A DNA stretch of 64,000 bases from Escherichia phage JLBYU08. Location: the sequence record OK272482.1; one strand, 5' to 3'. Below the pieces are notes generated by a model. The model worked only from the letters and a program-made list of their open reading frames with translations, was not told the origin of the DNA and made no database searches. This document shows positions 2,008 to 49,094 of this stretch, piece after piece; position 1 is the first letter of the stretch, and each line of letters starts with the position of its first letter. The translations under genes were made by a program, and so were the position numbers.

Positions 2008-2772
2008 CACACAATTAGCTGCCCGGCTAAAGTGCTGGAAGCACCTATAACACATCTTTCAACTAAATTTCCTACAACCACAATCACTTACCTCCCACAC
2101 ATGACTGTTTGCTTGTTTAGTGAGCAGTCATGCCTTGACATTCTTGCCTATCCTGATAAAATTAAGTTCTTCTCTTTTCTTTTACCGAGTAATTCGGGTT
2201 TTCTGTTCTCTTCGGTTTGAAGGGGTATGGAGATACACCTGAGTGAACAGGGTGAACAACCGAACATTTGGCTATGGCATTAGCATGGCGAAGCGGACGG
2301 GTGACGAAAGAGGGGCCGGAGGACACCAGTCACTGCCATATGATATATGGGTGATAACCTGAAGAGTCTGAATAAGTGTTTAAGTACCAGTCAGAGGAAA
2401 AGGTGAATGGTAGCCGAAGGGGGAGGGGGGGTTTCTTGTATCTTTAATTTGTATATTATGTATACACTTGTAAACCAATCTCATTTGAATTTGTTTACCA
2501 CACAAAGGGGATAGAGACAAATATTATCTATTAAACTTGAATTATTTATAGAAAATACCACAACACCACTTAAGTCTTTGATTTTACACACAAATCCTAC
2601 AGATATTCACCCTCCATATTTAACATACCTGTAACATATTCCATACCCTACCTGTCTGATCAATTCACCCAACCACACCCTCCATATTTTCCCTGTCTGT
2701 ACCACCCCTGCCCCGCCGGGAGTCCCGTCATATCTGGCTTTCCAGCAAATATCACACCCACAAATATCATTG

Positions 2773-14862: not shown

Positions 14863-14912
14863 AAATTTATCCTCTTTACTGGTTAGTGCGGTGTTGTTCA
14901 CCTTGTAGGGTA

Positions 14913-14940
14913 ATAATACCATGATTAACCTTGTTGTCAA
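14913..14940 (-). promoter_or_regulatory. sigma70-like promoter (TTGACA-16-TATTAT)
   Basis: Hexamers on minus strand upstream of 14665..14862. Confidence 0.45.
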
Positions 14941-14948
14941 CGACTATT

Positions 14949-15110
14949 TTAAATTATTTTTATGATAGAATCCACCTGCCGTCCCCGCCAGGTTAACCAC
15001 CATTTTTCGTACTCTTCTTTATGTTCCAACGCTCCCGCCATAGCCTTTTCAACCAGGGCGATAGCCTCAGAGTCATTAATAGCTACATTTTCCAGGGGGG
15101 ATCATATCAT
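14949..15110 (-). pseudogene. small acidic ORF broken by a frame shift at a C6 run (G6 on plus strand, 15095-15100)
   Basis: Strong SD (GAAGAGGAGG) and ATG, then stop within 10 codons; a 50-codon frame resumes after the homopolymer. Confidence 0.3.
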
Positions 15111-15264
15111 TTTTGTACCTCCTCTTCAATTGTTACCTATCCTGTAGCATAGGCCCACCAGGTTTACAAGCCTTCATTCTCCCCTACCTGGTCAGTTAGG
15201 TCCTGCCAGGCTGGCCCCGCCAGGTGGCACAATATACCTATCGAAAGGACGGCAGGCACCGGTG

Positions 15265-15470
15265 ACGGGGGAGACAACCACCGGGGATGGGCGCTGCATA
15301 AAATGAGAACGGTTATCATTATCATTTAAAAATTTATGCAAAAAAAAAAATCCTTGCTTTCTTTGTCCTGTGTGATACTATAATAACAAGCCGGGGCAAC
15401 AGGGGCCGGGAGACAATCACCGGGCCTGCCCGTTATTCTGCAAACGAGAATGATTATCATTCAAAATTCT
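15265..15470. repeat. two imperfect direct repeats of about 65 bp (GGGAGACAA-CACCGGG ... ATGAGAAC ... TTATCATT)
   Basis: Visible by eye at about 15267-15330 and 15406-15467; A11 run at 15340-15350 between them. Confidence 0.5.
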
Positions 15471-22231: not shown

Positions 22232-22488
22232 GCTTCCTCGTCGTCTAAAGAGTTGAAGATTTCACCGAAGTATTCTAAGACTTCTAGCTCCCGTGTGGTG
22301 CAGAAAACACAGTCACCGTTGTCATCCTCGATAACGGCCTCTTTACCCAGCACATCTACTTCAAGTTTATCGTTCAACAGGACAGCCCCTGTGTAAACTT
22401 TGTCGGCTGTGCAGTCCCGAAAAGCAGAGTCTTTCTCCAGATAGTCTGGCTTAACCTTGGCTTTAATTCGTTGGTATTGTTTGGTCAT
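22228..22488 (-). CDS. hypothetical protein, about 86 aa
   Basis: AAAGGGGA SD before internal ATG; track ORF begins at TTG. Confidence 0.45.
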   Translation of the reverse strand: MTKQYQRIKAKVKPDYLEKDSAFRDCTADKVYTGAVLLNDKLEVDVLGKEAVIEDDNGDCVFCTTRELEVLEYFGEIFNSLDDEEA

Positions 22489-22551
22489 TGCTGTGGTCCC
22501 CTTTCGTTTTGATAGGGCCATTATATTAGGCTCCATCACTGTTGTCAAGTA

Positions 22552-22773
22552 TTAATGTTCAGGTTTTACAAAAACTACTTCATTAACAGTGCACCAGACA
22601 GAGTCTCCTTCATCATCTTTAAAGGTAAGGCACTGTGCTGAGTTTTCCAGCTCATCGATCTCTTCTTGTGATAAAGGGGCCCCTTCTTCCAGGAGGGCTT
22701 TTACCAGGGGGGTTCTCACAAAACTCTGCTTCATAAATTGCACCGACTGTGCAATCTTTAAAAGCTCGGTCAT
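22552..22773 (-). CDS. hypothetical protein, about 73 aa
   Basis: ORF; no clear SD. Confidence 0.4.
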   Translation of the reverse strand: MTELLKIAQSVQFMKQSFVRTPLVKALLEEGAPLSQEEIDELENSAQCLTFKDDEGDSVWCTVNEVVFVKPEH

Positions 22774-22883
22774 TTGCAACGCATTCTGACTTCAAAGTAA
22801 TTTTCATCTTGGCAGTCTCCTTAGTTATTTAAAAATCAACGCTCTGTTTGTGTGAAACATCTTATATCTAATCTTACTTCTTG

Positions 22884-23255
22884 TCAATGACTATTTTCAA
22901 TCAGCCACACAGGGTCGAGGTAAATTTGTTGGCGTGTTGCCCAATGACAAACTTCATTGTACATCTGAACCTCTTTGTCTGTCAATTCACGAATAGGCTC
23001 ATCTATACCCTCATTTTTGTGGTAATCCCAGTCGGCATCGATTTCCCACAGCCATGACTTGTTGTCACCACGCTTACGCACACAGAAGTCACCAGGACGG
23101 CCTGCCAGTGCATTTAAGAACTCGTTCTCTGCTCGCTCCTGAAGAATGCTAAGGAGCAAAACGTTAGAACATGACCGTAGAATATGCTTCAGCTCACAAT
23201 CATCAATCTCAACTTCAATACGCTGTTTGACTGTGTGAGTACCTTTTACTAACAT
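22884..23255 (-). CDS. hypothetical protein, about 123 aa
   Basis: GGGGAGG SD before internal ATG. Confidence 0.55.
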   Translation of the reverse strand: MLVKGTHTVKQRIEVEIDDCELKHILRSCSNVLLLSILQERAENEFLNALAGRPGDFCVRKRGDNKSWLWEIDADWDYHKNEGIDEPIRELTDKEVQMYNEVCHWATRQQIYLDPVWLIENSH

Positions 23256-23265
23256 CCTGCCTCCC

Positions 23266-23460
23266 CTATACAAACTCTGCAAGTGTTGTGTTGTTCACTG
23301 CACCGCAGTAAATGGAGTATCCCAGCCCATTAAAGTGCAGAAACCACGGCGTGCCGGAATTATCTTTCACGTAGACATCGCCGTTGCTTGTAAAGGGCCA
23401 ATATTCTTCACCAAGGGTGAAATACCTACTCATACCCTCAGCCAGATACTTTACTTTCAT
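23266..23460 (-). CDS. small protein, 64 aa; member of a three-gene tandem paralogue set
   Basis: Shares pattern F..G..Y.V...D..G..W(F/Y) with the two upstream genes; ATGA coupling. Confidence 0.55.
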   Translation of the reverse strand: MKVKYLAEGMSRYFTLGEEYWPFTSNGDVYVKDNSGTPWFLHFNGLGYSIYCGAVNNTTLAEFV

Positions 23461-23684
23461 AGGCCCTCTTCAACAGCTACAAACTTGGCAAGCAGGGTGG
23501 TTCCGTAGATATGATACTCACCGTTTGCCAGATGGGAGATAAACCAGGCAATCCCTTCCTCGTCTTTAATCATCTTGTTTGCACGATTTTTATCGTAATA
23601 AACCTCGTAGGTCTTTCCTTCTTTAAAGAATGACAGGTCTGTCATCTTTTCTTCTACAAAGGTAGCTTTAACCAAAGTCGTCAT
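23457..23684 (-). CDS. small protein, 75 aa; tandem paralogue
   Basis: AAGGAG SD; ATGA coupling; shared motif. Confidence 0.6.
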   Translation of the reverse strand: MTTLVKATFVEEKMTDLSFFKEGKTYEVYYDKNRANKMIKDEEGIAWFISHLANGEYHIYGTTLLAKFVAVEEGL

Positions 23685-23965
23685 TGATCGGTCTCCTTCT
23701 TGTTAAGTCTGAATACTGCAATAATAGCATTCCCAAGGTGCAGTGTCAAGTCATTTCCAAGATACCACAGCATCCCACGGTCATCTTTAATGAAAGGGTA
23801 ACAATCTGGTGCCTTCCAGACATTGTACACTTTCCCAACCTGAAAGAAATCAGGCCCTGTTGGGATTTTGGTGCCAGGCCACACTTGAGATACCTGAACA
23901 CACTCCACCTGCATAATAACAGGAATGGTCATGGATGTAAATGTTTTTGTTGGCTCTACTACCAT
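23681..23965 (-). CDS. small protein, about 94 aa; tandem paralogue (start at MVVEPTK)
   Basis: AAAGAGGAGA SD before internal ATG; track ORF N-terminus would overlap polymerase exon 2. Confidence 0.55.
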   Translation of the reverse strand: MVVEPTKTFTSMTIPVIMQVECVQVSQVWPGTKIPTGPDFFQVGKVYNVWKAPDCYPFIKDDRGMLWYLGNDLTLHLGNAIIAVFRLNKKETDQ

Positions 23966-24014
23966 AAAAGTCTCCTCTTTGCTCAACAACACTTCCATGT
24001 GTTGATAGTTTACA

Positions 24015-24368
24015 TTAGTGACAATCACCCCAATTACGACCACACAAGTATTCACCTGTGATCTGGAACGGGACTCCCATCATTTTAGAAGCTTGCCAGA
24101 AGCAATGTACCACCATTTCGCCCACAGGACTCCAGATAAGTTCAAGCTTTCCGTCATCGTTCAAGATAGGATCGTACACCGTGTTTCCGTCTCTGTCAAC
24201 CACTTCGTTTCCGTTTTCATCCTTGCGTGCCTTTTTGTACTTATGACCGTCGAACACATGAAGTTTGGCCTCCTGCTCTGCCTTAAATGCTTCCAATTCT
24301 TCAATTGTGTCGAAGGTGTACACAGTCTTATACTTCGGTGTGTCAGGTACTTGAAGCTGATATTCATC
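24015..24368 (-). CDS. DNA polymerase (family A) exon 2: motif C (H|DEYQLQV) and C-terminal end ...NWGDCH
   Basis: Supplies the HDE motif and terminal His absent from the upstream 809-aa ORF; follows the omega-G of the intron. Confidence 0.75.
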   Translation of the reverse strand, partial: DEYQLQVPDTPKYKTVYTFDTIEELEAFKAEQEAKLHVFDGHKYKKARKDENGNEVVDRDGNTVYDPILNDDGKLELIWSPVGEMVVHCFWQASKMMGVPFQITGEYLCGRNWGDCH

Positions 24369-24697
24369 CATCTGTTCAGGTAGGTCGTTAAGCTACCCCG
24401 CACCATTACGTGCATAGCCATACAGTTTCCTGTATGGATCGGACTACCTCACTGCCTTGGTAACAAGGCACCTCCCATTTCGACCGCACTTGCTGGCCTA
24501 CTCTACTCGCTTCTTCACACCAACCTATGTTGGAGCTATGCTTTCGATAGTCTCTGAACGTTCATCCTCTCGGATGCTTCGCTGCGGATTAGCATATTGA
24601 GCTTTTACCATACTCAGGTGTAAAAGTCAACTTAGCTTTCCCGTCAATTAAAGAGGTTATTCGACATAGATCACTCTATGAAGCCACAATGTTATTT
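24369..24697 (-). mobile_element. group I self-splicing intron, 329 nt, no internal ORF
   Basis: AAUUGACGGGAAAG, GUUCAGAGACUA and GGUAGUCCGA elements; exon 1 ends in U, intron ends in G; in-frame TAA just inside intron. Confidence 0.8.
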
Positions 24698-27121
24698 ATG
24701 GTAATAGATAATACGACGGACACCTTCATCGTACCACCCACGCTTCACCATTTGGTGGTGCATGAGTATCCCAACTAAGTCACACAACGATGCACCACCA
24801 TTTTGTTGGTATGCATTAAGTAAAGAGTGTTTAGATCGGGTCCAGATGGCATGACCATCAAAAGAGTATATAAACTTCTTACCAGTTGCTTCCCAGAATT
24901 TCTCCAGATCCTCTTTACGCCCCTTAAGACCAGGGTTGGCATCCCAAAGCGCATCGATTACCCTTTGCCCCAACTCTGGAGAGATATCCAGCATGTCTGC
25001 AACTTTATCTTTTTGTGCCCCGTACATAACCCCATACGTGATAGGTTTACCGTCGTTACGGGACACCTCTCTGCCTGCTACTTTTGTATATGCCTCAGCA
25101 TTGTTTTGGTGTGCGTCCCCGTTACTTACAACATCATAATACAAGCCGTTGTCGAACTCAAAGGCACCCCAAGCCCCGATAAGCTGCTCTAAGTTGGACC
25201 CGTCAATACCGATCTCAAAGTATCCTGGAGGAACACCCCACAGACTACGCATCTCTTTACCCATAACCACTTTAGGAGATGGTTTAGGCATGTTTGCACA
25301 AATACTGTGTTTCTGTCGGGAAGTGTTTGTTAGCCCAGAACTTTTAGCAGGAAGCTTATGGTCAATCTTCAAACGTGGGTGATTAAGAAGACCAGTATCA
25401 ACCTTATCCTCCTTGATTGGATCAAGGACCGATCTGCGGTTTCGCAATGATAACCACAAGACGATATCTTTAGCCATCTCTCCGTTCAATTTTTCAAGAT
25501 TTGGGCATAGGTGTCCAAACGTATCTTTCAGCTGCGGAGAAGTAATAAGTGCTCTGGCTTTTCTACGTATTTTCCCGAATACTTCCTTTTTAATCCTTTC
25601 GGAGTTAGGAAAGCTTCGGAACTTGTGCACGGTTGTCTGAAACTTAGCATCAGTTTTGTTCCAGAAGTTGATAATCAGGTCACAATACTCTGACTCTAAA
25701 AGCTCGTCCATGTATGCATATACTCGTGCATCAACATCTGCATCAGGTAGAGCTTTCTTCTTGCTGTCTTTAGTTACATCCTTAGTTCTCCACATTGTCG
25801 GAAGCCAACCAGCACTGATCAGGTATCGCTTAATGTCGTCCTGATTGCTGATTTTCATAGGTATCTTGCAGTCCGGCATTCGCTTCTGCTGTAGATCACT
25901 TATTGCCTGATCCATCAGCTCTTTAGGTAAAGGTTGTGGTGTGGAAGTGCCCTTAATATAGCCTCTCAAGAAATCAGCCATCTTATCAGGGTCTTTGCAG
26001 CCCATCTCTTCACACCATTTTATCCCCATCTTGCTGACATCTCCTGTGGAGGTAAATGCTCGCTTAGGCGGGGCTTTGAACTCCAAAGCACTCATGTCCA
26101 CAGGATAGCCAAGCTTATCTTTTAACCATTTCCAACCATTGTTGGAGATTGTCCCATCTTGGTTAAACGGCTTTTCAGGGAACTTGGGCCGCTGAGACAT
26201 TGACAGCTCTTTTAAAGGAAGTTGAGGTTCAACACGATCAGCGATTTCTTTCATCCACGCATCGCAACGGTCACGTAAAGCAATAGCTCCATCTATGTCG
26301 AAGTATACACCCTGACGGGCCTGCAGCTCCATCAGGAAGTGCTGCAGCATGCCTCGACGTAGTGCGTTCTTCCAGGTGATCTTCTTGAACCCTTTCGGCT
26401 TCTCTTTGGCTGGATCGTACATAAAGTTCTGCATGTCAGATTTGCCGTAGAATACACCTTTTGATTCCGCTACCAGCTCTTTCCAGAGCAGCTCCTGGAT
26501 GATAACGTCCTCGAATACACGATCCACATACTTCCACAACGGAAGATCGCGCCAGTCATCAATTTGAACTTTCTGGTTACCAAGGGCGTAGCCCCATGCC
26601 ATAAGGCCGTGAGGACCAACAGGCTGCATTTTCTTAGTAACCGGGTTGAATACAGAGTCCGGACAACCTTTTGGTAAAGGGCGATCAGGCCACAAGATTC
26701 GGCTCATCGCCAACGTATCAAACAGGTTAACCTGGTGGTCGTTGATAGTCCCCATACATTTAGGATCACGGAACATATCAAAATGAATACCGGATAATCT
26801 CTCCATCAGCATAAAGTCATAACTGTAGCAGTTATGGCAGTTCAAAGCTGTTGGTGACCAGTCGGAATTGCCTGTAAGCCAACCCTCCAACTCTGAAAAA
26901 TCTGCTATGCGAACTTCAAAATCTTTATAAAAAGTTTTCTTTGCCAGAATAAAGTTCTTAGCCTTCTCTATATCCTCTTCGGAGTAGTGTGTGCGGTCAT
27001 TTAGAGGAAGGAACAGCATAAAACGGTTCTTATTCAGCTCTTTAAACAGGCCGCAGTGATAATAAAGATCTGGGTCTTCCAGCAAACCGGATGACTCAAA
27101 ATCGAACGACCACATGCTCAT
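24698..27121 (-). CDS. DNA polymerase (family A) exon 1: 3'-5' exonuclease and polymerase domains through motif B
   Basis: N-terminal WSFDFESSG exo motif; IGIDGSNLEQL (motif A-like); KPITYGVMYGAQ (motif B); AAGGAGAA SD. Confidence 0.9.
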
Positions 27122-45840: not shown

Positions 45841-45855
45841 TAAAAGGAGAGAGCC

Positions 45856-47173: not shown

Positions 47174-47449
47174 ATGACGAAAGAAGAGGCCGACGTATTA
47201 GATTTTGCACTAGAGGCTACGCAGGAGGCTTTGGTGTTAGCTTGGAAAATGAACCAGCGTGCTGCAGAATGCAACCGCCGCATCAATGAGATCTTGGGCA
47301 TGTCTATGTATGATTTCACCATGCATGCCGGAGAGATTCCTGAATTAACTGCCGAGATGAATGATCTTGACGATAAAATTAATATCATTCTGAAGACAGC
47401 AGAAACAACTCACCAAACCGCCCGTAAATTTATCAACGAGAAGGTGTGA
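47174..47449 (+). CDS. hypothetical protein, 91 aa
   Basis: ORF with GGAGAGA SD. Confidence 0.55.
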   Translation: MTKEEADVLDFALEATQEALVLAWKMNQRAAECNRRINEILGMSMYDFTMHAGEIPELTAEMNDLDDKINIILKTAETTHQTARKFINEKV

Positions 47450-47918
47450 ATATGGACTACAGCTACTGCGGGGAAGAAGTCCCTTTTAATTACAGCAATC
47501 TTACCACGAGCAATCCATATGAGACTCGCCACGGCACGCACATCATTGCCATCGACTTTGATGGAACGTTTAATGCGAGCCCTTTCATCTTCTCCCGCCT
47601 GATCAGGGATCTGAAGAAGGAGGGGGGTGGACAGTCTACCTTGTGACTTTCCGATTCATTACTCAAGACAATGTAGACATTGAGTATTGGCGCAAGGAGC
47701 TCGATGTTGGTGTGTTCTACACAGGTGGTGTTCAGAAGGCAGCCTACCTGGCGCAGTTTGATATCTACCCAGATATCTGGATTGATGATTCTCCGGCATG
47801 TATTCCGGCTAAGAATCAGTTAGAGTTTGCAATGAAGGAGATTGAGTATAAGTCTGAGGCTAAGCGGAACGGATGGCCCTTTATTATTGAAGATTACCCA
47901 GATCCTGAACCGGAGTAA
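47446..47918 (+). pseudogene. HAD-like phosphatase/nucleotidase gene split into two frames at a G6 run (47622-47627)
   Basis: N-terminal ORF carries HAD motif I (IAIDFDGT); downstream -1 frame carries K and DD motifs (DIWIDDSP); the two frames overlap only across the homopolymer. Confidence 0.5.
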
Positions 47919-47923
47919 GAGCC

Positions 47924-48094
47924 ATGAGGCGAAGATATCATTACCTGATGTGGAAGTTATATCAAAATGCTGCCAAAGCCTATCATACCATGTTTGGCAA
48001 TGACGATCACTACATCATGTTACATCTCACCGCTATTGAGCATCACAATGAGTGGATTCATGCAATCGTGGCAGGTGATAAAGACTTTAAGTAA
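47924..48094 (+). CDS. hypothetical small protein, 56 aa, His-rich
   Basis: ORF below track cutoff with GGAGTAAGAG SD. Confidence 0.35.
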   Translation: MRRRYHYLMWKLYQNAAKAYHTMFGNDDHYIMLHLTAIEHHNEWIHAIVAGDKDFK

Positions 48095-48144
48095 AGTATA
48101 CCTCAAAAACGTATAGTGCGGCTTTCTAGACGGAGACTGATTAA

Positions 48145-48525
48145 ATGTGCAAGTGTAAATCCTATAATTGGAAAGTGAAAGGTGCCAAGCATCCAAATGT
48201 TATCGTTGATGTGCCTAAAAATCTTCGTGACGGCAAAAAACGTGTGTGCCTTGATAAGTGTATGGCTAAGCCTATCATGAGTTTGTGGGCAGCAGGTTTG
48301 AAAACGCTAAACTGCTGCTGTGGTCATAACAAAGATATTCCAAGCATCATTATCCCAGAAGATGCAGATCCTAAAGCTTATGCCAAAATACTGACCCGCT
48401 ATCCCAGCACCTTCCTGATCGGAAAATGGTGTCACGATGAACTCCAATGGTGGATAGCCTATGGTAGTATAGGCACTACTTTTGGCTTCCCAGCTTTGTC
48501 AGAGCGCTATGTCAAAGTGTCATAA
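48145..48525 (+). CDS. Cys-rich hypothetical protein, 126 aa
   Basis: ORF with GGAGA SD. Confidence 0.55.
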   Translation: MCKCKSYNWKVKGAKHPNVIVDVPKNLRDGKKRVCLDKCMAKPIMSLWAAGLKTLNCCCGHNKDIPSIIIPEDADPKAYAKILTRYPSTFLIGKWCHDELQWWIAYGSIGTTFGFPALSERYVKVS

Positions 48526-48686
48526 TAGAATTTAAGGCCTCAAACGAGGCCTGTGCCTTCATAAATTTCCCCACCCTGTGCGATTGCCTTCCTGAATAAA
48601 ATACCCTCTCAGATCTCTTAAAATTAAGCTTGACACCACCACCAGATCTATATATAGTTCTCACCAACCAAACAGAGGAGATCGTC

Positions 48687-49094
48687 ATGGATAATCTTGC
48701 AGATGTAAATGTCGAAATTGTTAAACTAAAGTTCTTGGGCTTTCGAGACCCTTATTCTTTAACAGCCATACTAATGGATACTCACTTCACACCAGGTAAA
48801 GAGTACACTGCCTTCCGTTATATTTGCGGAGATCACGAATCAGCTTACAGTGTGAATACAAACCTCGGCGAGGGATATTTCATCAGAGATATCACAGATC
48901 ACTTGTGGGGTATGTGGGAGTTGGTGGAGGAAGAGAATAAATCCCTTCCTAAAGAGATTTGGGTGCACACCTTCCACACAGGTAAGTTTGGAGGTACGGA
49001 ACATAAGTCTATCCACTATGATGAAGAAAGTGCCATCAAACAACAAGCTGTGCTTGGTGGATCTATAGAAAAATTTGTTAAATGCGAGGACTGA
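48687..49094 (+). CDS. hypothetical protein, about 135 aa (start at MDNLADV)
   Basis: GAGGAG SD before internal ATG. Confidence 0.55.
   Translation: MDNLADVNVEIVKLKFLGFRDPYSLTAILMDTHFTPGKEYTAFRYICGDHESAYSVNTNLGEGYFIRDITDHLWGMWELVEEENKSLPKEIWVHTFHTGKFGGTEHKSIHYDEESAIKQQAVLGGSIEKFVKCED

What the first reader, a model, noticed from the sequence alone, without database searches (positions are those of the whole stretch)
47446..47918. HAD-like phosphatase gene broken at a G6 homopolymer
The upstream ORF ends three codons after a GGGGGG run (47622-47627) and carries HAD motif I (DFDGT). The -1 frame opens at 47574 and carries the K and DD motifs (DIWIDDSP). The two frames together would make one HAD-like enzyme of about 155 aa. 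This could be a sequencing error, a real pseudogene, or programmed frameshifting or transcriptional slippage at the G run.
Basis: partly seen in the sequence, partly recalled or inferred. Interest (0 to 1): 0.5.

Follow-up and report, generated by a model that had tools for sequence, protein, structure and literature searches.

The report
Phage phosphatase gene broken by extra GG
One isolate of an rV5-like E. coli phage has two extra G's in a short G-run, which splits a small, otherwise well conserved phosphatase-like gene; this is an ordinary isolate-specific frameshift, not programmed recoding.

Summary
G6 lies at 47622-47627. ORF1 (ATG 47452 to TGA 47646) carries DFDGT, and the -1 frame, open from 47574 to 47918, carries the Lys and DIWIDDSP.

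The window is a Vequintavirus and very probably Escherichia phage JLBYU08, whose GenBank record already annotates both halves as separate CDS. In relatives the locus is one 154-157 aa gene with G4 at this site. Phage EmilHeitz is identical across the gene except for the two extra G's. None of 114 GenBank relatives has G6, and neither do four metagenome or IMG/VR contigs.

Programmed frameshifting is rejected because the arrangement is not conserved and there is no downstream structure.

An independent k-mer assembly of run SRR25464460 reproduces this G6 exactly. It also reproduces a second window-specific G6 that breaks another conserved gene at 22707. Sibling JLBYU phages were sequenced on Illumina. 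I therefore favour a real, very recent loss-of-function insertion (about 0.65) over a read-level artefact (about 0.27).

The same run carries G5 in at least five other backgrounds, so it is a recurrent frameshift hot spot. Interest is low.

The parts
47438..47444 (+). Shine-Dalgarno-like GAGAAGG, 7 nt upstream of the ATG at 47452
   Evidence: Read directly from the sequence. Relatives annotate the same ATG as the start of the gene.
47452..47646 (+). N-terminal fragment of the gene. It is 64 aa from the ATG, or 66 aa from GTG 47446 as annotated in GenBank UGO56280.1. It ends at a premature TGA.
   Evidence: aa 1-58 of the CarlMeissner protein, 98.3% identity. One search gives an exact match to UGO56280.1 of phage JLBYU08.
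47554..47568 (+). HAD motif I, DFDGT, holding the nucleophile Asp and the general acid/base Asp
   Evidence: D35, D37 and T39 are invariant in 56 family members.
47622..47627 (+). G6 run, which is G4 plus two inserted G's. This is the frameshifting lesion.
   Evidence: Relatives have GGAGGGGTGG. G6 is absent from 114 GenBank records and from 4 IMG/VR or metagenome contigs. It is reproduced in Logan contig L027 of SRR25464460.
47628..47918 (+). C-terminal 97 codons of the gene in the -1 frame. The frame is open from 47574. GenBank annotates 47643-47918 as a separate 91-aa CDS, UGO56279.1. The GTG at 47643 overlaps the ORF1 stop as GTGA.
   Evidence: (aa 58-154, 100% identical to CarlMeissner).
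47646..47648 (+). HAD motif II Thr (ACT in LVTFR)
   Evidence: T65 is 90% or more conserved and R67 is invariant.
47736..47738 (+). HAD motif III Lys (AAG in GGVQK)
   Evidence: K95 is invariant.
47772..47795 (+). HAD motif IV region, DIWIDDSP, with the Mg2+-binding acidic pair
   Evidence: W109 is invariant. D111, D112 and P114 are 90% or more conserved.

Best explanation
The locus is one gene for a small (154 aa), cap-less HAD-fold phosphatase-like protein. This accessory gene is conserved across Vequintavirus (rV5-like) phages. In this isolate, very probably Escherichia phage JLBYU08, two extra G's in a G4 run (GGAGGGGTGG to GGAGGGGGGTGG) shift the frame after codon 58.

Translation from the normal start gives a 64-aa stub that has the nucleophile motif DFDGT but lacks motifs II-IV. 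The remaining 97 codons are out of frame. I judge the insertion to be a real, very recent mutation in the sequenced phage stock, which makes this a fresh pseudogene or 'off' allele. It arose at a G-run that is a recurrent indel hot spot in this gene. It is not a programmed recoding signal.

Shown here:
- the lesion and its uniqueness to this genome;
- the intact state of the gene in relatives;
- purifying selection on the gene;
- the HAD fold and motifs;
- reproduction of the G6 in an independent read-level assembly.

Inferred, not shown:
- the reads are Illumina;
- the protein is a phosphatase, possibly acting on nucleotide or polynucleotide phosphate ends;
- the truncated products are inactive.
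For: **The lesion**
- Relatives have one 465-474 nt ORF with G4. EmilHeitz is identical to the window over the whole gene except for the two G's.
- G6 is unique. No record among 114 phage records reaches 99% or more with a 55-nt probe. One IMG/VR contig and three metagenome contigs all have G4.

**The gene is functional in the family**
- dN/dS against the repaired window gene is 0.013-0.062.
- In a 56-member alignment D35, D37, T39, R67, K95 and W109 are invariant. T65, D111 and D112 are 90% or more conserved.
- The AlphaFold model has mean pLDDT 84.9.

**The G6 is in the reads**
- Logan k-mer contigs from run SRR25464460 are 100% identical to window 47430-48688, including the G6, and to 22449-24483, including a second window-specific G6.
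- The ends of these contigs are not at homopolymers.
- Sibling JLBYU phages from the same lab were sequenced on Illumina iSeq 100 (PMC10373560). From general knowledge, cycle-locked sequencing-by-synthesis does not make systematic insertions in 4-6 nt runs.

**Real inactivations of this gene occur elsewhere**
- G5 occurs at the same run in BP9, SRR31618306, ERR2602148 and two further backgrounds (P0184, P0185). Several of these lie on Logan contigs longer than 120 kb.
- ERZ27283526 has a TGG to TGA nonsense codon next to the run.
- V18 has a 1-nt deletion upstream.

**The change is recent**
- There is no secondary decay. The C-terminal part is 100% identical to CarlMeissner at the protein level.
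Against: - A +2 expansion of a run of only four G's is an unusual spontaneous mutation.
- The same genome has a second unusual change to G6 (GAGGG to GGGGGG at 22707) that breaks another conserved gene. It also has G-run gains at 2425 and 15095. Several odd events of one type in one genome look like a technical signature.
- The sequencing platform of SRR25464460 is not known to me. The Logan contigs from that run are short (1.3 and 2.0 kb), which could mean low coverage.
- If the platform were flow-based or nanopore, both assemblies would share the same error.
- I could not inspect the reads.
Confidence: 0.65

Rival explanations
1. Read-level sequencing artefact. The phage really has G4 and an intact gene, and the two extra G's are a homopolymer or G-rich miscall carried into both the submitted assembly and the Logan assembly.
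For: - G6 is unique among more than 118 related sequences.
- The gene is under strong purifying selection and is otherwise identical to that of EmilHeitz.
- In the well-conserved 41 kb only three indels separate the window from CarlMeissner and nimi. The two that are unique to the window both create G6 on the same strand, and both break conserved genes.
- Four of the five G runs of 6 or more on the + strand are longer than in the nearest relatives, whereas three of the five C6 runs are matched exactly by at least one of them.
Against: - An independent k-mer assembly of SRR25464460 contains both G6 alleles with both flanks, so at least two reads carry each.
- The two contigs match the window at 100% over 3.3 kb and do not break at homopolymers. 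That argues for accurate reads.
- The lab's sibling phages were sequenced on Illumina.
- No A/T homopolymer indel unique to the window was found in the conserved 41 kb, although A/T runs are far more numerous there.
- GAGGG to GGGGGG is not a simple homopolymer length error.
Confidence: 0.27
2. Programmed recoding. A -1 ribosomal frameshift on G_GGG_GGU, or RNA-polymerase slippage on the G6, routinely restores a full-length protein (KKEGGWTV...), so the arrangement is functional.
For: - GGGGGGU formally fits the X_XXY_YYZ pattern in the zero frame, and a -1 shift would restore the protein with one extra Gly.
- An SD-like AGGAGG lies immediately upstream.
- The downstream part shows no decay.
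Against: - The arrangement is not conserved. Relatives encode the protein in one frame with G4.
- The other variant alleles are G5, which would need the opposite shift (+1).
- There is no stimulatory structure downstream. MFE is -22.5 kcal/mol against -20.7 +/- 3.2 for shuffles, z = -0.56.
- From general knowledge, G-rich heptamers are poor -1 sites and an SD-like element at near-zero spacing disfavours -1.
- Also from general knowledge, bacterial RNA-polymerase slippage generally needs longer A/T runs.
Confidence: 0.03
3. Split enzyme. ORF1 and ORF2 are both translated, with ORF2 made by termination-reinitiation at the overlapping GTGA (47643-47646). The two polypeptides then reassemble into an active HAD domain.
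For: - The ORF1 stop TGA (47644-47646) overlaps a GTG at 47643-47645 that opens the frame carrying motifs II-IV.
- GenBank annotates both halves as CDS.
Against: - The overlap is an accidental by-product of the frameshift, because the GTG is the Val codon of the conserved LVTFR.
- Residues 59-64, the conserved core strand WTVYLV, are lost from both products.
- No SD precedes the GTG.
- No relative has a conserved two-gene arrangement of this kind.
Confidence: 0.03

Closest known systems
HAD (haloacid dehalogenase-like) superfamily phosphatases, cap-less 'C0' type, e.g. KDO-8-P phosphatase YrbI and BT_0820 (PDB 2obb)
   Same: - All four catalytic motifs are present: DxDxT, Thr, Lys and DD.
- The predicted fold is Rossmannoid.
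- A profile search hits 2obb across motifs I-IV at E = 0.012.
   Different: - No Pfam or NCBIfam HAD model reaches its threshold.
- The protein is very small, with a catalytic core of about 90 aa and no cap.
- It has an extra, low-confidence N-terminal 30 residues.
- Substrate and activity are untested.
3'-phosphatase domain of T4 polynucleotide kinase/phosphatase (PDB 1ltq, 5uj0) and bacterial Pnkp1 (4xrp)
   Same: - Several GenBank records, including JLBYU08, name the gene 'polynucleotide kinase'.
- One family member, P0050, is fused to a cyclic-phosphate-processing cREC domain.
   Different: - There is no kinase domain and no P-loop in the 154 aa, read directly from the sequence, so the name 'kinase' is wrong.
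- Sequence identity is only about 15%.
- Other HAD phosphatases and P-type ATPase domains score equally well, so there is no specific link to Pnk.
Homopolymer frameshift pseudogenes and contingency (phase-variable) loci
   Same: - The length of a G-run switches the reading frame.
- The same run carries G4, G5 or G6 in different isolates.
   Different: - From general knowledge, typical contingency tracts are 7 nt or longer, whereas the ancestral state here is only G4.
- On/off switching within a population has not been shown.
- About 98% of the GenBank relatives have G4.
Programmed frameshift sites: dnaX (-1, A_AAA_AAG plus SD plus hairpin), prfB (+1, SD plus CUU_UGA), and tail-chaperone G/GT-type shifts in phages
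   Same: A slippery-looking run is preceded by an SD-like AGGAGG.
   Different: - The arrangement is not conserved among relatives.
- There is no downstream structure.
- No slow codon is present.
- The shifted arrangement is the exception, not the rule, in the family.

Membership tests
HAD superfamily | Motif I, hhhDxDx[TV], holding the nucleophile Asp | tested here: met
   The window has IAIDFDGTF. D35, D37 and T39 are invariant in 56 homologues.
HAD superfamily | Motif II (Ser/Thr), motif III (Lys/Arg) and motif IV (DD or DxxxD) | tested here: met
   T65 is 90% or more conserved, K95 is invariant, and D111 and D112 are 90% or more conserved.
HAD superfamily | Rossmannoid alpha/beta core fold | tested here: met
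   [not shown]
HAD superfamily | Match to a curated HAD family model (Pfam or NCBIfam) above its threshold | tested here: not met
   The protein has no Pfam or NCBIfam hit. Only 5 of 56 members touch PF08282, with a best E of 0.019. The protein belongs to PHROG 4919, function unknown.
HAD superfamily | Mg2+-dependent phosphoryl transfer activity | not testable with these tools
   This needs an enzyme assay of the intact (G4) protein.
T4-type polynucleotide kinase/phosphatase | N-terminal P-loop kinase domain | tested here: not met
   The protein is only 154 aa and has no GxxxxGK[ST] in its sequence. The structural match covers the phosphatase domain only.
Programmed -1 ribosomal frameshift | Slippery heptamer X_XXY_YYZ in the zero frame | tested here: inconclusive
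   G_GGG_GGU fits the pattern formally. From general knowledge, it is not a known efficient site.
Programmed -1 ribosomal frameshift | Downstream stimulatory hairpin or pseudoknot | tested here: not met
   Folding 47628-47720 gives z = -0.56 against shuffles.
Programmed -1 ribosomal frameshift | The two-frame arrangement is conserved in relatives | tested here: not met
   No record among 114 GenBank records has G6, and neither do 4 other contigs. Nearly all have an in-frame G4.
Transcriptional slippage | A long homopolymer, usually 8-9 or more A/T, on which RNA polymerase realigns | tested here: not met
   The run is only six G's. The length requirement is from general knowledge.
Contingency locus / phase variation | Recurrent, reversible changes in tract length at the same site in independent lineages | tested here: inconclusive
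   G5 occurs in at least five sequence backgrounds and G6 in one. Reversibility and within-population switching were not testable, and the ancestral tract is short (G4).

The most novel reading that the evidence does not exclude
The G-run inside this HAD-like gene may be a true mutational switch in Vequintaviruses.

- G4 ('on') recurrently becomes G5 or G6 ('off').
- G5 alleles occur in at least five diverged backgrounds, and their repaired coding sequence is still under purifying selection: 24 synonymous against 2 non-synonymous codon differences.
- This could reflect selection to silence the protein on some hosts, for example to escape a defence system that senses it.
- It could also reflect leaky rescue: a +1 shift for G5, or a -1 or +2 shift for G6, helped by the AGGAGG immediately upstream.
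Probability: 0.1. Interest if true: 0.5.

Novelty: already known. Interest (0 to 1): 0.15.

Why it matters
- **For annotation.** The two 'putative polynucleotide kinase' CDS of JLBYU08 are halves of one frameshifted gene. The gene encodes a HAD-fold phosphatase-like protein, not a kinase.
- **For biology.** The finding shows only that this conserved accessory gene is dispensable for plaque formation and is occasionally knocked out.
- **What could be more interesting.** The recurrence of G5 and G6 alleles at one short G-run would need read-level and experimental confirmation before it counts as anything more.

Tried and rejected
**Searches for the G6 allele elsewhere**
- An exact G6 pattern search in IMG/VR found nothing.
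- Variable-gap pattern scans of IMG/VR, metagenome and genome collections found only G4 or nothing.

**Searches for the source record**
- E. coli genomes gave no match. Plasmids gave one 97% relative.
- An exact look-up of the 64-aa ATG-start product failed. So did a look-up of the 1878-aa tail fibre.
- The look-up of encoding contigs had no gene on record for the 66-aa GTG-start product. The exact-sequence look-up in the cluster collection matched it, which identified JLBYU08.

**Family assignment by sequence**
- Pfam, NCBIfam and single-sequence PDB searches found nothing useful. A profile and a predicted structure were needed instead.

**Homopolymer error check in the first 22 kb**
- This region is too diverged from every relative (95.8% or less) and partly non-coding, so its many indels are uninformative.
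- The apparent frameshift in WalterGehring CDS 14864-15157 lies in a promoter-like intergenic repeat, and I did not count it.

**Other checks**
- I considered Dcm (CCWGG) sites as a cause of nanopore-type miscalls. Two of the G-run sites (15095 and 22707) contain CCAGG, but 47622 and 2425 do not, so I dropped the idea.
- A literature search for Vequintavirus homopolymer frameshifts gave nothing specific.
- A search for JLBYU08 or SRR25464460 by name found no paper that mentions either.

Full report
**1. What is in the sequence**

Positions 47622-47627 are GGGGGG.
- The upstream frame starts at ATG 47452, which lies 7 nt after GAGAAGG. The longest-ORF start is GTG 47446.
- This frame reads MDYSYC…IAIDFDGTF…KKEGGGQSTL and stops at TGA 47644-47646.
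- The -1 frame is open from 47574 and runs to TAA 47916-47918. It reads …EEGGGWTVYLVTFRF…GGVQK…DIWIDDSP….
- One slip: ORF1 ends five sense codons plus a stop after the codon that holds the last G, not three.

**2. Where the window comes from**

The window is a Vequintavirus (rV5-like) E. coli phage.
- It is 99.3% identical over 24 kb to phages CarlMeissner and nimi.
- The exact 66-aa and 91-aa products of the two ORFs are UGO56280.1 and UGO56279.1. Both are named 'putative polynucleotide kinase [Escherichia phage JLBYU08]'.
- The window is therefore very probably JLBYU08, and the split is already annotated there as two CDS.

**3. The intact state of the gene**

In EmilHeitz, rV5_ev146, rV5, JES2013 and others the locus is one 465-nt gene (154 aa; 157 aa in some lineages). 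The sequence at the site is GGAGGGGTGG.
- EmilHeitz is identical to the window over the whole gene except for two missing G's.
- A 55-nt probe over the site matched 114 GenBank phage records. None reached 99% or more, so none has G6.
- All listed records span 53 nt (G4) with two exceptions. BP9 spans 54 nt and has G5, with the gene annotated as two CDS. V18 has G4 plus a separate 1-nt deletion upstream.
- One IMG/VR contig and three metagenome contigs all have G4.
- tblastn of all CarlMeissner proteins from the conserved 41 kb shows every gene intact in the window apart from three cases: this gene; bas48_0081; and the DNA polymerase, which carries an intron.

**4. What the gene is**

No Pfam, NCBIfam or single-sequence PDB hit was found. 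The protein belongs to PHROG 4919, function unknown.
- An exhaustive HMMER search found 489 relatives. Most are proteins of 90-140 aa that match residues 31-117.
- In a 56-member alignment D35, D37, T39, R67, K95 and W109 are invariant. T65, D111, D112 and P114 are 90% or more conserved. These are exactly the four HAD motifs.
- The profile hits the small HAD-like protein BT_0820 (2obb) across all the motifs at E = 0.012.
- An AlphaFold model has mean pLDDT 84.9, with the core above 90.
- There is no kinase domain, so 'polynucleotide kinase' is a misnomer. 'Cap-less HAD-fold phosphatase-like protein' is accurate.
- Activity and substrate are inferred, not shown.
- The gene is under strong purifying selection. 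dN/dS against the repaired window allele is 0.013-0.062 in the ten comparisons that have synonymous differences.

**5. Is it programmed?**

No.
- Recoding signals are conserved among relatives, and this one is absent from all of them (section 3).
- The other variant alleles at the site are G5. They would need a shift in the opposite direction.
- The 93 nt downstream fold no better than shuffled sequence, z = -0.56.
- G_GGG_GGU formally fits X_XXY_YYZ, and an AGGAGG lies just upstream. From general knowledge, G-only heptamers are poor -1 sites, an SD at near-zero spacing does not favour -1, and six G's are too few for RNA-polymerase slippage.
- A low background level of spontaneous rescue cannot be excluded.

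**6. Real mutation or artefact?**

*For an artefact:*
- Only three indels separate the window from CarlMeissner and nimi across the conserved 41 kb.
- One of them, at 45841, is a natural polymorphism shared with six other phages.
- The other two are unique to the window. Both create GGGGGG on the + strand, and both break conserved genes. They are GGGG to GGGGGG here, and GAGGG to GGGGGG at 22707-22712, which splits the homologue of bas48_0081.
- G-runs at 2425 and 15095 are also one G longer than in the nearest relatives, whereas three of the five C6 runs are matched exactly by at least one of them.
- Neither +2 in a G4 run nor A to GG is a common spontaneous change.

*For a real mutation:*
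- The collection holds Logan contigs, which are k-mer assemblies made directly from public reads, for run SRR25464460. They are 100% identical to window 47430-48688 and 22449-24483.
- Each of the two contains its G6 with both flanks. Assembler error is therefore excluded, and at least two reads carry each allele.
- These contigs match the window perfectly over 3.3 kb, and their ends are not at homopolymers. That fits accurate reads at low coverage, not flow-based or nanopore data.
- The same laboratory sequenced its sibling JLBYU phages on an Illumina iSeq 100 (PMC10373560). From general knowledge, cycle-locked sequencing-by-synthesis does not insert bases systematically in short runs.
- Real inactivations of this gene clearly exist elsewhere. 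G5 alleles lie on Logan contigs of 125-135 kb from other runs. A TGG to TGA nonsense codon next to the run occurs in a metagenome contig that is 99.4% identical to the window.

*Weighing.* I put about 0.65 on a real, very recent insertion in the sequenced stock. 'Recent' follows from the absence of secondary decay: aa 58-154 are 100% identical to CarlMeissner. I put about 0.27 on a read-level artefact. The platform of SRR25464460 is the missing fact.

**7. Consequence if real**

- The 64-aa stub keeps only motif I.
- The rest of the gene is out of frame.
- The conserved strand WTVYLV (residues 59-64) is lost from both annotated products.
- The GTG at 47643 overlaps the ORF1 stop as GTGA. This is an accident of the shift, because it is the Val codon of LVTFR, and no SD precedes it.
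- The allele is best read as a null allele of a dispensable accessory gene.

**8. A hot spot**

+1 alleles at the same run (…KKEG|VDS…) occur in at least five different sequence backgrounds:
- BP9;
- SRR31618306;
- ERR2602148;
- P0184 with P0177, in a 157-aa lineage;
- the more diverged P0185 with P0182.

Three of these phages differ by 3-4% over the surrounding 3-4 kb. Their repaired genes nevertheless differ by 24 synonymous and only 2 non-synonymous codons. These are therefore not old decaying pseudogenes. They could be recurrent recent events, a young allele moved by recombination, or alleles that are still expressed. Part of the ERR2602148 gene is BP9-like, which fits recombination. This is the only part of the story with any potential for novelty, and I rate it as unlikely (about 0.1).

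**9. Verdict**

- The 'broken HAD-like gene' reading is supported.
- Programmed recoding is rejected.
- The lesion is an isolate-specific GG insertion, more likely real than artefactual.
- The kind of feature is well known and the split is already visible in GenBank. Interest is low.

Noticed in passing
window 22552-22807 (- strand); G6 at 22707-22712: A second conserved small gene is frameshifted at another window-specific G6. It is the homologue of CarlMeissner bas48_0081 (84 aa). Relatives have GAGGG where the window has GGGGGG. None of 115 related records has this allele, but Logan contig L022 of SRR25464460 reproduces it exactly.
   Followed up: yes
window 24369-24697 (insertion); Rfam hit at 24419-24707, - strand: The DNA polymerase gene is interrupted by a 329-nt insertion that is absent from CarlMeissner and nimi. 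The insertion matches the group I intron model RF00028 at 72.5 bits, E = 1.9e-16. The exons are aa 1-808 (27121-24698) and aa 809-925 (24368-24018).
   Followed up: partly
window 14982-15105 (- strand); G6 at 15095-15100: The homologue of a 58-aa WalterGehring gene (bas51_0105) is disrupted at its 5' end. The window has G6 where WalterGehring has G5, plus a 7-nt deletion at the start codon region, plus a T5 versus T6 difference further in. This region is variable in all relatives.
   Followed up: partly
window 2425-2431 and 15346-15356: Two further homopolymers are longer than in relatives: G7 against G6 at 2425, and A11 against A5-A6 at 15346. The 15346 run lies in promoter-like intergenic sequence, and 2425 lies in a stretch with no annotated CDS in WalterGehring.
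   Followed up: partly
L009 (BP9), L024 (ERR2602148), L025 (SRR31618306), L023 (ERZ27283526), L010 (V18): Other phages carry independent lesions in the same gene. G5 occurs at the same run in at least five backgrounds. L023 has a TGG to TGA nonsense codon directly after the run. V18 has a 1-nt deletion 22 nt upstream. The repaired G5 alleles show 24 synonymous against 2 non-synonymous codon differences.
   Followed up: partly
P0050 (217 aa homologue, not in the window): One member of this mini-HAD family is fused to a cREC_REC 'cyclic-phosphate processing receiver' domain (PF20274, E = 2.7e-20). This hints at a role in processing RNA or nucleotide phosphate ends.
   Followed up: no
GenBank records MG0656xx ('Campylobacter phage C12, C15, A147…'): About 15 records labelled as Campylobacter phages are 89-99% identical to this E. 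coli Vequintavirus locus. The one fetched, A147 (MG065644.1), is titled UNVERIFIED. The names probably reflect contamination or mislabelling.
   Followed up: no
window 45841: A 1-nt intergenic indel separates the window (TAAAA) from CarlMeissner and nimi (CAAAAA), just upstream of an RBS. Six other phages share the window's version, so it is a natural polymorphism.
   Followed up: yes
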